Assembly (NCBI GenBank): GCA_024280585.1
Contig: JAJRPW010000109.1
Location: 1-30,793 of the forward strand
Direction: 5' to 3'
Source of the DNA: Alphaproteobacteria bacterium
GTDB taxonomy: Bacteria > Pseudomonadota > Alphaproteobacteria > Rickettsiales > UBA6187
DNA: 30,793 nt
Below the pieces are notes generated by a model. That model worked only from the letters and a program-made list of their open reading frames with translations, had not been told where the DNA came from and searched no databases. Shown piece by piece: positions 19,889 through 22,462 of this stretch (the stretch's first letter is position 1; the number at the start of each line of letters is the position of its first letter). A program made the translations under genes and the position numbers.

Positions 19889-21085
19889 ATGTCTATAACT
19901 GAAGTCAAAGCTCGTGTGGATCAATTAGGTTCCGCATGGGAGCAATTTAAAAAAGTAAACGATCAACGCCTTAAGGAAGTTGAGAATAAAGGGGCTTCTG
20001 ACCCTTTAACCGATCAACATTTAAACCGTGTTAATGCTAAATTGGATGAGTATAAAGAGCGTGTAAACAAAATGGAAGCAGCTCTTAGCCGCCCTAGTTT
20101 TGGTAGCGTATCTGGTTATAAATTTGAAGATTCAGCAGTAAGCGCACATAAAGAAGCTTTCTGCAACTACCTTAGAAAAGGTGTTGAAGGTGACTTGTGT
20201 AATTTGGAAACTAAAGCACTTTCTGCAGCTTCTGACCCAGATGGCGGATATTTAGTTTCTCCGCAAATCTCTGAAACTATCGTGAAAGCAATTTTTGAAA
20301 CATCACCAATGAGAAAAGTTGCAAACGTGCAAACCATCTCTTCCGATGCTTTGGAAATTCTGCAGGATAATTCAGAGGCGGTCGCTGGTTGGACTACTGA
20401 GTCCGGCGCGGTATCTGATACTGCAACTCCGACTTTGGCCAAGAAAAGTATTCCAGTTCATGAGCTTTATGCACAACCAAAAGCCACACAGAAATTAATT
20501 GATGACTCATCAGTTGATATCGAAGCTTGGCTGGCCGAAAAAATCTCTGATATTTTCTCCAAGAAAGAAAATACAGCGTTTGTTTCAGGCGACGGTGTGG
20601 GCAAACCAAGGGGCATATTGACTTATACTTCAGGCACTAGCTGGGGTGAAATCGAACAAGTTGCTTCTGGTTCTAACGGAGTTGCAACTGCTGATACAAT
20701 CATCGAATTATATTACTCATTGAAAGAAGATTATGCGGTAAATGCAAGCTTCTTGATGAATAGAGGTATGATTGAGGATATTCGTCAGCTAAAAGATACG
20801 ACTAACCAGTATCTATGGAATCCAGGCTTAGCTGTTGGCGCACCGGACACTCTTATGGGCGTTCCTGTGTTGCAAGCGGCTGATATGCCAGTTCCTGCAA
20901 CTGACAGCTTGTCTATCGCTGTTGGTGACTTCAAAGCAGCTTACCAAATCGTGGATAGAACCGGAGTTCGCGTGCTGCGTGACCCATTCACTGACAAACC
21001 GTTTGTTAAGTTCTACTCAACAAAACGAGTAGGCGGTGATGTGGTTAACTTCGAGGCTATCAAGTTGATGAAATTAGGTTCTTAG
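19889..21085 (+). CDS. HK97-fold major capsid protein (RcGTA g5-like)
   Basis: AAGGAG RBS; coiled-coil delta domain; DPDGGYLVSPQ, HELYAQPKATQKLIDD, FVSGDGVGKPRGIL and LRDPFTDKPFVKFYSTKRVGGDV. Confidence 0.97.
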   Translation: MSITEVKARVDQLGSAWEQFKKVNDQRLKEVENKGASDPLTDQHLNRVNAKLDEYKERVNKMEAALSRPSFGSVSGYKFEDSAVSAHKEAFCNYLRKGVEGDLCNLETKALSAASDPDGGYLVSPQISETIVKAIFETSPMRKVANVQTISSDALEILQDNSEAVAGWTTESGAVSDTATPTLAKKSIPVHELYAQPKATQKLIDDSSVDIEAWLAEKISDIFSKKENTAFVSGDGVGKPRGILTYTSGTSWGEIEQVASGSNGVATADTIIELYYSLKEDYAVNASFLMNRGMIEDIRQLKDTTNQYLWNPGLAVGAPDTLMGVPVLQAADMPVPATDSLSIAVGDFKAAYQIVDRTGVRVLRDPFTDKPFVKFYSTKRVGGDVVNFEAIKLMKLGS

Positions 21086-21103
21086 GTTGCCGGTAAAAAG
21101 ATG

Positions 21104-21132
21104 TTGATCAATGGCTTTATATAGTCTATTAT
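21104..21132 (+). promoter_or_regulatory. Sigma70-like promoter for a putative antisense RNA
   Basis: TTGATC-17 bp-TATTAT. Confidence 0.6.
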
Positions 21133-21138
21133 GGTAGG

Positions 21139-21265
21139 TAAGGGACAAAAAGGAGTATTTTCCTAACTGCCCCTCGTGTTTAGTGAAACTAATCTATGAG
21201 TTCGAGAACTCTTCTGACTAATTCCACCAACAGCGCGGCTATCTTTAGTAGCCGCGCTGTTTTAT
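21139..21265 (+). ncRNA. Putative ~125-nt antisense RNA (antitoxin candidate)
   Basis: Lies between the 21104-21132 promoter and the 21229-21265 terminator; complementary to most of the 30-aa ORF. Ends are estimated. Confidence 0.4.
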
Positions 21266-21281
21266 CTTGAAGTGGTTTCAT
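21189..21281 (-). CDS. 30-aa amphipathic peptide, type I toxin candidate
   Basis: AAGGAGGT RBS 5 nt before ATG; MKPLQDKTARLLKIAALLVELVRRVLELID*; upstream TTGATC-16 bp-TAATAT promoter and a structured ~115-nt leader. Below the ORF-track cutoff. Confidence 0.65.
   Translation of the reverse strand: MKPLQDKTARLLKIAALLVELVRRVLELID
21229..21265 (+). terminator. Rho-independent terminator inside the peptide ORF (opposite strand)
   Basis: Perfect 13-bp stem AACAGCGCGGCTA/TAGCCGCGCTGTT, 7-nt loop, ending in TTTT. Confidence 0.7.
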
Positions 21282-21533
21282 AAAAAACCTCCTTAAGAAG
21301 GGTTAATGAAATCCTGTACTTACAAGAACAACGGGCTTAAGTAGCCTTACCTATTCCCGCCATTCCTGGCAGGAGTCTTATGGTTTACCCATAAGACAGG
21401 ACTATATTAGCATTGTTTTATTGTTGATCAACATCTTTACTGTCTGTTGGAGGAAAAATTCTCAATGCACTATTGACTTGGCCGGCTAGTTTAAATAACC
21501 TTGTTCTAACGGAATTAGTTAGAGAGGCTATGA

Positions 21534-21992
21534 ATGAAACCAGTTAATGATAGCGCATTTGCAATGTGGCGGTGTTTAGTCGCATTCGCTTATATTGACG
21601 GAAAATTTACCGATGAAGAAAAAGAATTATTGGAATCTCACTTTGAGAATGTTGCTTTTAATCCAAAGCAACGCAAAATTATTAATAATGATTTTGAAAC
21701 AGGTGAGGTGAAATTCGATGAAATATACCCCCTTGTCACAAATAAACAAGATCGTATGAACCTGATTAATATCGGGCGGGTCTTGTTTTATTCGGACGGA
21801 GAGTTTTCCTGGCAGGAAAGAGATGCCATGGATAAACTACTCAGTGATTATATAGACGGAATGGATAAAGATGCTGTGCTTTATGAGGCAAAAGAACAAT
21901 TGCCCGATGAAGAGTTGTCAAAAATTCATAAAAACTCTGATAATCCAATCAAAGGTATAGTCGATTACATAGATGATTTTTTATCCTCATGA
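21534..21992 (+). CDS. TerB-like (DUF533-type) protein
   Basis: LVAFAYIDGKFTDEEKELL and a second copy LFYSDGEFSWQERDAM, the duplicated TerB-like acidic motif. Confidence 0.75.
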   Translation: MKPVNDSAFAMWRCLVAFAYIDGKFTDEEKELLESHFENVAFNPKQRKIINNDFETGEVKFDEIYPLVTNKQDRMNLINIGRVLFYSDGEFSWQERDAMDKLLSDYIDGMDKDAVLYEAKEQLPDEELSKIHKNSDNPIKGIVDYIDDFLSS

Positions 21993-22057
21993 CTGGTAAG
22001 TTGCCCGTTGATAGAGAGATTTTTTCTCCTTTTAATTTTTATAAAAAGGAGAAAATC

Positions 22058-22462
22058 ATGAATGATTTACATAATAACGTGAAAGCCGAAGTGGCTTTGA
22101 ATACGACTGCTATTTCGACTAATACTACCACTGTCGGTAATATTATTGATATGCAGGGTTACGGCTCGATTGAATTCATAATACAATCAGGCACTTTGAC
22201 CGATGGTACTTATACGCCATTAATCGAAGAAGGTGCTGTTGCTAACTTAAGCGATGCTGCCGCTGTTGCCGATGCCGATTTACTTGGAACTGAAGCTGCT
22301 GCAGTTTTTGCTGCAACCGATGATAATACAGTTAAAAAGCTTGGATATATAGGCAATAGCCGCTATATCAGGATTTCTATCGTATCGGCAAGTACTACTT
22401 CAGGCGGTACTTTATCGGCTGTTTCTGTAAAAGGAAATGCGGGCGATATGCCTGTGGCCTAA
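22058..22462 (+). CDS. Phage/GTA head accessory (decoration-like) protein
   Basis: AAGGAG RBS before ATG 22058; MNDLHNN...TTTVGNIIDMQGYGSIEFII.SGTLTDG; small Ala/Thr/Gly-rich beta protein of a type usually found just after capsid genes. Role inferred. Confidence 0.6.
   Translation: MNDLHNNVKAEVALNTTAISTNTTTVGNIIDMQGYGSIEFIIQSGTLTDGTYTPLIEEGAVANLSDAAAVADADLLGTEAAAVFAATDDNTVKKLGYIGNSRYIRISIVSASTTSGGTLSAVSVKGNAGDMPVA

What the first reader, a model, noticed from the sequence alone, without database searches (positions are those of the whole stretch)
21097..21438. Self-contained 342-bp type I toxin-antitoxin-like cassette whose terminal inverted repeats are its two promoters
Identical 15-bp inverted repeats (AAAGATGTTGATCAA) bound the element, and each contains the TTGATC -35 of an inward promoter. 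The minus-strand transcript has a ~115-nt leader with hairpins (perfect stem GTCTTATGG/CCATAAGAC at 21375-21397), a strong AAGGAGGT RBS and a 30-aa amphipathic peptide. The plus-strand promoter (TTGATC-17-TATTAT) would give a ~125-nt RNA ending at a perfect 13-bp terminator inside the peptide ORF. This matches type I TA organisation, which is little described in Alphaproteobacteria. It sits right after the capsid gene in a cluster with no visible holin, so it could be a stabiliser, a terminator block or a membrane-permeabilising release factor.
Basis: partly seen in the sequence, partly recalled or inferred. Interest (0 to 1): 0.78.

Follow-up and report, generated by a model that had tools for sequence, protein, structure and literature searches.

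The report
New antisense-controlled small toxin-like gene cassette
The 342-base stretch after the capsid gene is a real two-gene cassette, a tightly folded mRNA for a 30-residue membrane-type peptide plus an opposing small RNA, and it belongs to an undescribed multi-copy family in Rickettsiales-like bacteria that has the layout of a type I toxin-antitoxin system, though toxicity is untested.

Summary
The decisive new evidence is comparative. The 30-aa minus-strand ORF belongs to a family of 29-38-aa peptides. I collected 26 copies in 8 genomes of the same order, including a second copy in this genome and tandem arrays in one relative.

The whole cassette is conserved:
- a sense promoter and a hairpin at the mRNA 5' end;
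- an ORF open in every copy;
- a convergent antisense promoter at a fixed position in 24 of 25 aligned copies;
- an antisense terminator hairpin inside the ORF, with compensatory changes at 10 of 12 pairs;
- a covarying long-distance pairing between the 5'UTR and the mRNA 3' end.

The mRNAs are extremely structured (window z = -9.2). The peptide is predicted to be a single amphipathic helix. Its nearest language-model look-alikes are TisB and DinQ, which is a weak lead only. No Pfam, NCBIfam, Rfam, PHROG, PADLOC or PDB family matches.

The 15-bp inverted repeat is real and non-random, but it is unique to this copy. It is two copies of one -35 region, not transposon ends. Other copies lie between housekeeping genes, so a role in the gene transfer agent is not supported. 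Toxicity and both RNAs remain untested. The scan has noted other type I-like families in Alphaproteobacteria, but not this one.

The parts
21424..21438 (-). Right arm of the 15-bp inverted repeat. It contains the -35 box TTGATC (21431-21426) of the sense (peptide mRNA) promoter.
21404..21412 (-). Sense promoter extended -10: TGC + TAATAT, 16 nt after the -35 box. The predicted transcription start is near G21397.
   Evidence: Read. Position matches the promoters of homologous cassettes (TAGACA-17-TATAAA in G046; TTGAT-16-TATTAT/TATGAT in G001).
21375..21397 (-). Hairpin at the mRNA 5' end: 9-bp perfect stem GUCUUAUGG/CCAUAAGAC.
   Evidence: The same hairpin (CTTATGn..nCATAAG and variants) sits at the same place in most homologs.
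21355..21374 (-). Second 5'UTR helix, the CCUGCC...GGCGGG element. In homologs this motif also pairs with a distal CNGCAGG, forming a long-range helix.
21345..21353 (-). 5'UTR arm (UAGGUAAGG) of the long-distance pairing with the mRNA 3' end.
   Evidence: repeat I9, 9/9 complementary. The pairing covaries across the family.
21287..21294 (-). Shine-Dalgarno sequence AAGGAGGT. In the predicted fold GGAGG pairs with CCUUC (21301-21297), and AUGAAA pairs with UUUCAU (21311-21306).
   Evidence: A Shine-Dalgarno motif lies 5-9 nt before the ATG in nearly all homologs.
21189..21281 (-). 30-codon ORF plus stop codon: a predicted amphipathic single-helix peptide and putative toxin.
21229..21270 (+). 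Intrinsic terminator of the antisense RNA: 13-14-bp hairpin at 21229-21261 plus a T-rich tail. It is embedded in codons 7-18 of the ORF. It would also stop read-through from the capsid gene.
   Evidence: In the family, 10 of 12 pairs carry compensatory changes.
21181..21229 (-). Long hairpin covering the 3' half of the ORF and the stop codon: UGGUGGAAUUAGUC/GAUUAGUUUCACUA with an inner stem.
   Evidence: By eye, an analogous TTGGAr...yTTCCAA pairing is present in the G046 copies.
21139..21269 (+). Predicted antisense RNA (putative antitoxin), about 130 nt. It has a 5' hairpin (21142-21172), a single-stranded middle and a terminator hairpin. It is fully complementary to ORF codons 5-30 and about 50 nt of the 3'UTR.
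   Evidence: (z = -4.8).
21135..21143 (-). 3'-end arm (CCUUACCUA) of the long-distance pairing. It overlaps the start of the antisense RNA.
21127..21132 (+). Antisense promoter -10 box TATTAT.
   Evidence: T1, A2 and T6 of this hexamer are invariant in all 25 aligned cassettes. The promoter is found at a fixed position in 24/25.
21097..21111 (+). Left arm of the 15-bp inverted repeat. It contains the antisense promoter -35 box TTGATC (21104-21109).

Best explanation
The element is one copy of a previously undescribed family of type I toxin-antitoxin-like modules.

The sense transcript. A weak-to-moderate promoter on the minus strand makes an mRNA of about 260 nt. It starts with a protective 5' hairpin and carries a structured leader of about 116 nt. 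It encodes a 30-residue amphipathic alpha-helical peptide. In the predicted fold the ribosome-binding site and start codon are buried, and the 5'UTR pairs with the 3' end, closing the molecule into an inert form.

The antisense transcript. A strong, conserved promoter on the plus strand makes an RNA of about 130 nt. It is perfectly complementary to the last two thirds of the ORF and the 3'UTR, and it ends at a hairpin that lies inside the ORF.

Inferred by analogy with known type I systems. The antisense RNA pairs with the mRNA and triggers its cleavage or blocks its activation. If the RNA is lost or out-titrated, the peptide is made, inserts into the inner membrane and depolarises the cell.

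Status of the evidence. Shown in silico: the conserved ORF, both promoters, the terminator and the RNA pairings with covariation, and the multi-copy, tandem family. Inferred: expression of both RNAs, the mechanism of repression, the membrane target and toxicity.

The 15-bp inverted repeat is the same -35 region used by both promoters in this copy only. Its position after the capsid gene is one of many lineage-specific insertions in this gene transfer agent cluster.
For: 1. Peptide family. tblastn and profile searches found homologous 29-38-aa ORFs in G046 (13 or more matches, several in tandem pairs about 335 nt apart), G045 (5), G001 (3), G011, G004, G100, G027 and a second locus of the window's own genome, C142:1731-1817. 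The start, Shine-Dalgarno motif and length are conserved (A1/A5).
2. Coding signal. Frame +1 is open in all 26 copies and no other frame is. Pairwise differences by codon position are 0.55/0.30/0.52, so position 2 is the most conserved, as expected for hydrophobic residues.
3. Antisense promoter. It is present in 24/25 cassettes with the -10 box at a fixed offset and 8-11 of 12 consensus matches. -10 positions T1, A2 and T6 are invariant.
4. Antisense terminator inside the ORF. It has 12 pairs, 10 of them with double compensatory changes, followed by a T-rich tail. The stem changes alter the encoded residues (R/G, L/A/W), so the RNA structure itself is under selection.
5. Long-distance pairing. 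The 5'UTR/3'-end pairing is copy-specific: cognate pairs average 7.2 nt against 5.1 nt for non-cognate pairs (Mann-Whitney p = 2e-10). The helix CCUGCNG/CNGCAGG covaries.
6. Structure. The window mRNA folds at -111.9 kcal/mol with z = -9.2. The family mean z is about -9.5. The antisense RNA has z = -4.8. The SD and AUG are paired in the minimum-energy fold.
7. Peptide properties. AlphaFold2 gives one helix over residues 3-29 with pLDDT 88. The best 18-residue windows have Kyte-Doolittle 1.1-2.2 and a high hydrophobic moment, and all charged residues lie on one face. The nearest named ESM Atlas clusters are TisB and DinQ toxins at 0.82-0.85.
8. Distribution. It is patchy across 5 families of one order, with no hit in 400 genomes sampled from the rest of the class. 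This is typical of type I families.
Against: - There is no toxicity test.
- The hydrophobic segment is interrupted by charged residues and is not a classical transmembrane helix.
- No sequence family of known toxins or antitoxin RNAs matches. The ESM scores are below the 0.9 level at which they count as more than a lead.
- Across the family, the predicted pairing of the Shine-Dalgarno region (0.55) is no higher than the average for the whole mRNA (0.69), so translational locking is not demonstrated.
- The mRNA has no canonical intrinsic terminator, so its 3' end is a guess.
- Copies were found through translated searches, which biases towards open frames.
- The paralogs within G046 are not independent observations.
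Confidence: 0.7

Rival explanations
1. The cassette encodes a non-toxic small membrane or regulatory protein whose synthesis is tuned by a cis-antisense RNA. The architecture is real, but the module is not an addiction or toxin system.
For: All the structural evidence fits this reading equally well. The peptide is amphipathic rather than strongly hydrophobic. No toxin family matches.
Against: Tandem and dispersed multi-copy arrays are the hallmarks used to find type I toxins. So are a private antisense RNA in every copy, extreme mRNA folding (mean z about -9.5), a stronger antisense than sense promoter, and patchy phylogenetic spread. Benign small proteins are rarely amplified in this way.
Confidence: 0.2
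2. It is a purely RNA-level element: a pair of structured convergent small RNAs or a repeated structured spacer. The short ORF would be a by-product of the conserved hairpins and is not translated.
For: Much of the conserved peptide core (ARLL..ALLL) is encoded by the two arms of the terminator hairpin, and stem covariation drives amino-acid changes. AAGGAGG is a poor predictor of genes in this genome.
Against: The frame is open in 26/26 copies despite about 41% mean column identity in the DNA. Length changes fall in multiples of three. The ATG and Shine-Dalgarno motif are aligned. Codon position 2 is the most conserved, and this holds in the C-terminal half outside the terminator hairpin as well.
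Confidence: 0.06
3. It is ordinary spacer DNA: the plus-strand hairpin is simply the capsid-gene terminator, and the ORF, promoters and inverted repeat are coincidences. Alternatively it is a miniature inverted-repeat transposable element bounded by its inverted repeats.
For: Relatives also carry hairpins just after the capsid stop. The terminator would indeed stop capsid read-through. The 342-bp size and 15-bp inverted repeat look like a miniature transposable element.
Against: The whole cassette has 25 homologs elsewhere, none next to a capsid gene. The inverted repeat is absent from all other copies. The 15-mer occurs only at this locus. There is no target-site duplication. No match was found in plasmids or phages.
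Confidence: 0.03

Closest known systems
TisB/IstR-1 and DinQ/AgrB (E. coli type I toxin-antitoxin systems)
   Same: The peptides are of the same size (29 and 27 aa against 29-38 aa here). Each forms a single helix in which a strip of alternating charges interrupts a leucine/isoleucine/valine-rich face; the TisB and DinQ descriptions are in PMC8309996. They are the nearest named clusters by protein-language-model features. Their primary mRNA is translationally inert.
   Different: There is no detectable sequence membership: Pfam TisB_toxin and DinQ give no hit. [quoted passage not shown] Here it is cis-encoded and overlaps the ORF 3' part. Those genes are LexA-controlled, and no LexA-type box was recognised here.
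TxpA/RatA, BsrG/SR4, YonT, SprA1, SprG/SprF (3'-overlapping type I systems of Gram-positive bacteria)
   Same: The two RNAs are transcribed convergently, and the antisense RNA lies on the 3' side and overlaps the toxin ORF (organisation as summarised).
   Different: [quoted passage not shown] This family is in Rickettsiales-like Alphaproteobacteria. Here the antisense terminator lies inside the ORF 5' third. No Rfam antitoxin family matches.
Hok/Sok and AapA1/IsoA1
   Same: The mRNA is highly folded, with a 5'-3' long-distance pairing that closes the molecule and with a buried ribosome-binding site (from my knowledge of hok and aapA1 mRNAs; see also PMC6733600, listed). The AapA1 peptide is also 30 aa. 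The antisense RNA is nested within the mRNA. Copies occur in multiples.
   Different: In those systems the antisense RNA targets the 5' part of the mRNA. Hok is about 50 aa and has a leader ORF. There is no sequence similarity.

Membership tests
Type I toxin-antitoxin system (generic class) | A small ORF (under about 60 aa) encoding a hydrophobic or amphipathic membrane-type peptide | tested here: met
   29-38 aa; frame conserved in 26 copies; single helix at pLDDT 88; amphipathic.
Type I toxin-antitoxin system (generic class) | An antisense RNA gene with its own promoter and terminator, complementary to the toxin mRNA | tested here: met
   Promoter conserved in 24/25 copies at a fixed position. 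Terminator has 10/12 covarying pairs. This is sequence-level evidence only; expression was not observed.
Type I toxin-antitoxin system (generic class) | A toxin mRNA folded so that translation is prevented until it is processed | tested here: inconclusive
   z = -9.2; SD and AUG are paired in the window's minimum-energy fold; the 5'-3' pairing covaries. However, the family-wide pairing probability of the SD region (0.55) is not above the mRNA average.
Type I toxin-antitoxin system (generic class) | The peptide is toxic on expression and is neutralised by the RNA | not testable with these tools
   This needs induction and rescue experiments.
Type I toxin-antitoxin system (generic class) | Frequent multi-copy or tandem occurrence and narrow, patchy distribution | tested here: met
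   Tandem pairs in G046, 2 copies in the window's own genome, and 7 other genomes among 400 sampled from the order. None in 400 genomes sampled from the rest of the class.
TisB (PF13939) / DinQ (PF28061) toxin families | Sequence match to the family profile | tested here: not met
   hmmscan of 14 members against Pfam at E up to 10 gave no TisB or DinQ hit. There is only ESM feature similarity of 0.82-0.85.
TisB/IstR-1, DinQ/AgrB | A trans-acting antitoxin RNA encoded upstream that does not overlap the mRNA | tested here: not met
   Here the antisense RNA overlaps the ORF 3' part. The organisation of the known families is described.
Rfam antitoxin RNA families (Sok, IstR, RatA, SR4, Sib, Rdl, etc.) | Covariance-model match | tested here: not met
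   No family reaches its gathering score in the window. Only chance-level matches at E >= 0.2 were found in 20900-21700.
Miniature inverted-repeat transposable element | Terminal inverted repeats shared by the copies, target-site duplication, and many copies | tested here: not met
   The inverted repeat is only in the window copy. The 15-mer is unique to the locus. No direct repeat flanks the arms.
Phage holin / GTA lysis factor | Match to holin families, or consistent linkage to phage or GTA structural or lysis genes | tested here: not met
   No PHROG hit. Relatives' GTA clusters lack the cassette. Other copies flank dsbB, thiF, truA, asd, trkH, dprA and similar genes.

The most novel reading that the evidence does not exclude
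In this genome the cassette may have been co-opted by the gene transfer agent cluster. The identical, partly palindromic 15-bp sequence over both -35 boxes would be an operator for one regulator that switches the balance between toxin mRNA and antisense RNA. Read-through from the capsid gene would add antisense RNA. The TisB-like peptide would then serve as the missing membrane-permeabilising release factor of a cluster that has no visible holin.
Probability: 0.05. Interest if true: 0.85.

Novelty: new member of a known kind. Interest (0 to 1): 0.62.

Why it matters
[quoted passage not shown] My literature searches found no family reported for Alphaproteobacteria or Rickettsiales.

This family gives 26 natural variants with clear covariation for four RNA elements. 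It is therefore a ready-made comparative data set for how a toxin mRNA is locked and how a 3'-overlapping antisense RNA works in a Gram-negative lineage. That layout has so far been listed only for Gram-positive families.

It also shows a coding sequence and a transcription terminator co-evolving within the same 33 nt.

For genome annotation, it explains an unannotated, highly structured intergenic repeat in uncultured Rickettsiales-like genomes. The 1.84-billion-protein library held only 8 called members, and the two I looked up carry no functional name (one is labelled 'hypothetical protein').

Tried and rejected
- Nucleotide homologs of the cassette: none in 60 relatives. The one short hit lay inside a coding region and was chance.
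- Close relatives for base-level comparison: the nearest capsid protein in 5.8 billion proteins is 86% identical, so no same-genus DNA exists in the collections. Two of the three contigs I looked up had no DNA available.
- Idea that the 450-bp spacer is a decayed copy of the 134-aa gene that follows the capsid gene in relatives: rejected. That gene is intact at 22058-22462, and the spacer has no translated similarity to it.
- Pattern scan for the 5' hairpin: in genome contigs, only one of 16 hits carried the peptide, a record titled 'uncultured Rickettsiales bacterium'. In metagenome contigs, 0 of 34 did.
- Family libraries: Pfam, NCBIfam, PHROGs, PADLOC and PDB sequences gave no match.
- Plasmid and phage collections: no DNA match.
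- Search for a regulon using the 15-bp or 12-bp palindrome: no enrichment or clear sites elsewhere in the genome. The function of the repeat stays open.
- A U-turn (YUNR) motif in the hairpin loop is present in 17/23 copies, but it cannot be separated from the conserved Leu codons.

Full report
**Observation**

The region between the capsid gene (19889-21085) and the next gene (21534-21992) is 448 bp of non-coding DNA.
- A perfect 15-bp inverted repeat at 21097-21111 and 21424-21438.
- A plus-strand promoter TTGATC-17-TATTAT.
- A minus-strand TTGATC-16-TAATAT with a TG extension.
- The 9-bp hairpin at 21375-21397.
- AAGGAGG, six bases, then ATG, opening a 30-codon ORF at 21281-21189.
- A 13-14-bp perfect hairpin with a T-rich tail at 21229-21270 on the plus strand.

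The 15-mer occurs only at these two places in the 1.53-Mb assembly. No shuffle of the region out of 300 gave a separated inverted repeat that long. Rfam holds no matching family.

**Context**

The window carries a gene transfer agent (RcGTA-type) head-tail cluster: terminase, portal, prohead protease, capsid, connector, head completion, tail and baseplate proteins. Unrelated genes interrupt it.

In four genomes of the same family (capsid 76-86% identical), the capsid gene is followed directly by a conserved 134-aa gene. In the window that gene lies at 22058-22462. Between it and the capsid gene sit the cassette and a TerB-like gene. Other metagenomic relatives carry different insertions at the same spot. 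The cassette is therefore a lineage-specific insertion. No same-genus DNA exists in the collections; the best capsid match is 86% identical.

**The family**

A translated search with the 30-aa peptide in 300 genomes of the order gave nine matches in one genome (G046) and two in another (G045). Reading these loci showed complete ORFs of 31-34 codons, each with a Shine-Dalgarno motif and the shared core ARLL..ALLLLE.....LEL.

A profile search added copies in G001, G011 and G004 (the window's own family), in G100 and G027, and more in G045 and G046. An enlarged profile found a second copy in the window's own genome, on contig C142. I collected 26 copies in 8 genomes.

At E <= 0.001 there was no match in 400 genomes sampled from the rest of the class. 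Only 8 members had been called as proteins in a 1.84-billion-protein library, and the two I looked up carry no functional name (one is labelled 'hypothetical protein'). The one named record that carries a member is titled 'uncultured Rickettsiales bacterium'.

**The whole cassette is conserved, not only the ORF**

An alignment of 25 cassettes (A2) shows the following.

1. Antisense promoter. It lies at a fixed distance downstream of the stop codon. The -10 positions T1, A2 and T6 are invariant and the -35 TTGA/TTTA is nearly so. A consensus scan finds it in 24 of 25 copies with 8-11 of 12 matches. The window's TTGATC-17-TATTAT is this promoter.
2. Antisense terminator. The hairpin inside the ORF, followed on the antisense strand by a T-rich run, has 12 pairs, 10 of which show compensatory double changes. 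The stem variants change the encoded residues (AR/KG/EG on one arm, LL/AL/WL on the other), so the RNA structure itself is selected.
3. 5' hairpin. It sits immediately at the predicted start of the sense transcript. It is followed by a CCUGCNG element that can pair locally or with a distal CNGCAGG, and this pairing covaries.
4. Long-distance pairing. A 7-11-nt stretch in the 5'UTR is complementary to the sequence just beyond the 3'UTR hairpin. In the window this is 21345-21353 with 21135-21143, 9 of 9. The paired sequences differ from copy to copy but stay complementary. Cognate pairs average 7.2 nt against 5.1 nt for non-cognate pairs (Mann-Whitney p = 2e-10). The copies are related, so this p-value overstates independence.

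The sense promoter is weaker and more variable.

**Coding evidence**

The peptide frame is open in all 26 copies and no other frame is. Differences by codon position are 0.55, 0.30 and 0.52, the pattern expected when hydrophobic character (T at position 2) is preserved. Length differences fall in whole codons. There is some ascertainment bias, because copies were found by translated searches.

**RNA folding**

- The predicted window mRNA (21402-21136, minus strand) folds at -111.9 kcal/mol with z = -9.2. In that fold GGAGG pairs with CCUUC, AUGAAA pairs with UUUCAU, and the 5'UTR pairs with the 3' end.
- Across the family the mean z is about -9.5. Two copies in G045 look decayed.
- The antisense RNA (21139-21269) has a 5' hairpin, an open middle and the terminator, with z = -4.8.
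- Family-wide, the start codon is usually paired (0.76). The Shine-Dalgarno region is not more paired than average (0.55 against 0.69). Translational locking is therefore plausible but not shown.

**The peptide**

AlphaFold2 with the family alignment gives a single helix over residues 3-29 with mean pLDDT 88. The best 18-residue windows have Kyte-Doolittle means of 1.1-2.2 and high hydrophobic moments. In the window peptide all charged residues from R10 to D30 fall within a 160-degree arc.

This resembles the published description of TisB and DinQ, which are helices with a strip of alternating charges (PMC8309996). The nearest named ESM Atlas clusters for two family members are TisB and DinQ toxins, at 0.82-0.85, which the tool rates as a lead only. 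No profile library recognises the peptides.

**What the inverted repeat is**

Its arms are the -35 boxes of the two promoters, plus 7 bp upstream and 2 bp downstream of each. No other copy has more than 6-10 bp of complementarity between its two promoter regions. The repeat is therefore not part of the family design and not a transposon end, and there is no target duplication. It may be a shared operator or UP-like element, or the trace of one promoter copied onto the other. I found no other sites in the genome that would define a regulon.

**Relation to the gene transfer agent**

Other copies lie between dsbB, thiF, truA, asd, trkH, trbI, dprA, ETF-QO and threonine dehydratase genes. Relatives' clusters lack the cassette. 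The position after the capsid gene therefore looks incidental.

One side effect is that the antisense terminator would also stop read-through from the capsid gene, and such read-through would add antisense RNA.

**Comparison with known systems**

- By organisation it is closest to the 3'-overlapping families TxpA/RatA, BsrG/SR4, YonT, SprA1 and SprG. The T1TAdb paper lists these as all Gram-positive.
- By mRNA design (5'-3' closure, nested antisense RNA) it recalls Hok/Sok and AapA1/IsoA1.
- By peptide character it recalls TisB and DinQ.
- It is a sequence member of none of them.
- Literature searches found no type I family described for Alphaproteobacteria or Rickettsiales.
- Earlier notes of this scan report other, different type I-like families (20-22-aa peptides, 5'-overlapping RNAs) in uncultured Alphaproteobacteria.

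**Verdict**

The reading as a type I toxin-antitoxin-like cassette is supported as far as sequence analysis can take it. It is a new family of a known kind. Toxicity, both transcripts and the mechanism of repression are still to be shown.

Noticed in passing
G000 contig C142:1618-1967 (locus L063, about 1390-1740): A second, divergent copy of the cassette lies in the window's own genome, between a DsbB gene and a CxxCxxCC-domain gene. It has a 29-aa ORF, an internal hairpin and a consensus TTGACA-17-TATAAT antisense promoter.
   Followed up: partly
window 21086-22462: Gene order differs from relatives. They have capsid, then the 134-aa gene, then the TerB-like gene. The window has capsid, cassette, TerB-like gene (only about 35% identical to relatives' copy), then the 134-aa gene. 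The gap between the capsid gene and the 134-aa gene is an insertion hot spot: a 419-aa minus-strand ORF sits there in one metagenomic relative and a 417-bp gap in another.
   Followed up: partly
window 21989-22462: The listed 157-aa ORF is probably over-extended. The conserved 134-aa protein, found next to the capsid gene in all relatives and with no Pfam family, starts at 22058.
   Followed up: partly
window 21263-21296 vs 21519-21552: The peptide's ribosome-binding site, start and first six codons (MKPLQD) resemble, in inverted orientation, those of the neighbouring TerB-like gene (MKPVND): 25 of 34 bases (repeat I1). This could be chance, shared initiation-region constraints or a small inverted duplication.
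   Followed up: no
L034 373-734 (-) and L054 1385-1752 (-) (genome G045): Two family copies look decayed. One lacks a Shine-Dalgarno motif and has mRNA z = -1.2. The other lacks the antisense promoter and has z = -3.1.
   Followed up: no
L039 1345-1694 and L047 1348-1697 (genome G001): In these copies the ORF-internal hairpin is flanked by an A-run on one side and a T-run on the other. It could therefore terminate transcription in both directions, including the toxin mRNA itself (attenuation).
   Followed up: no
L015 (JGI contig Ga0452210_010728), 1099-4972: A truncated GTA-type capsid homolog (84% identical over 80% of the query) sits next to a Prim-Pol/PriCT_2/DUF3987 primase gene and many small ORFs. 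This looks like a mobile-element context rather than a GTA cluster.
   Followed up: no
window 21439-21533: A possible promoter for the TerB-like gene (TTGACT-17-TAACCT at about 21474-21502) lies just outside the cassette. The cassette and its neighbour are thus separate transcription units.
   Followed up: no
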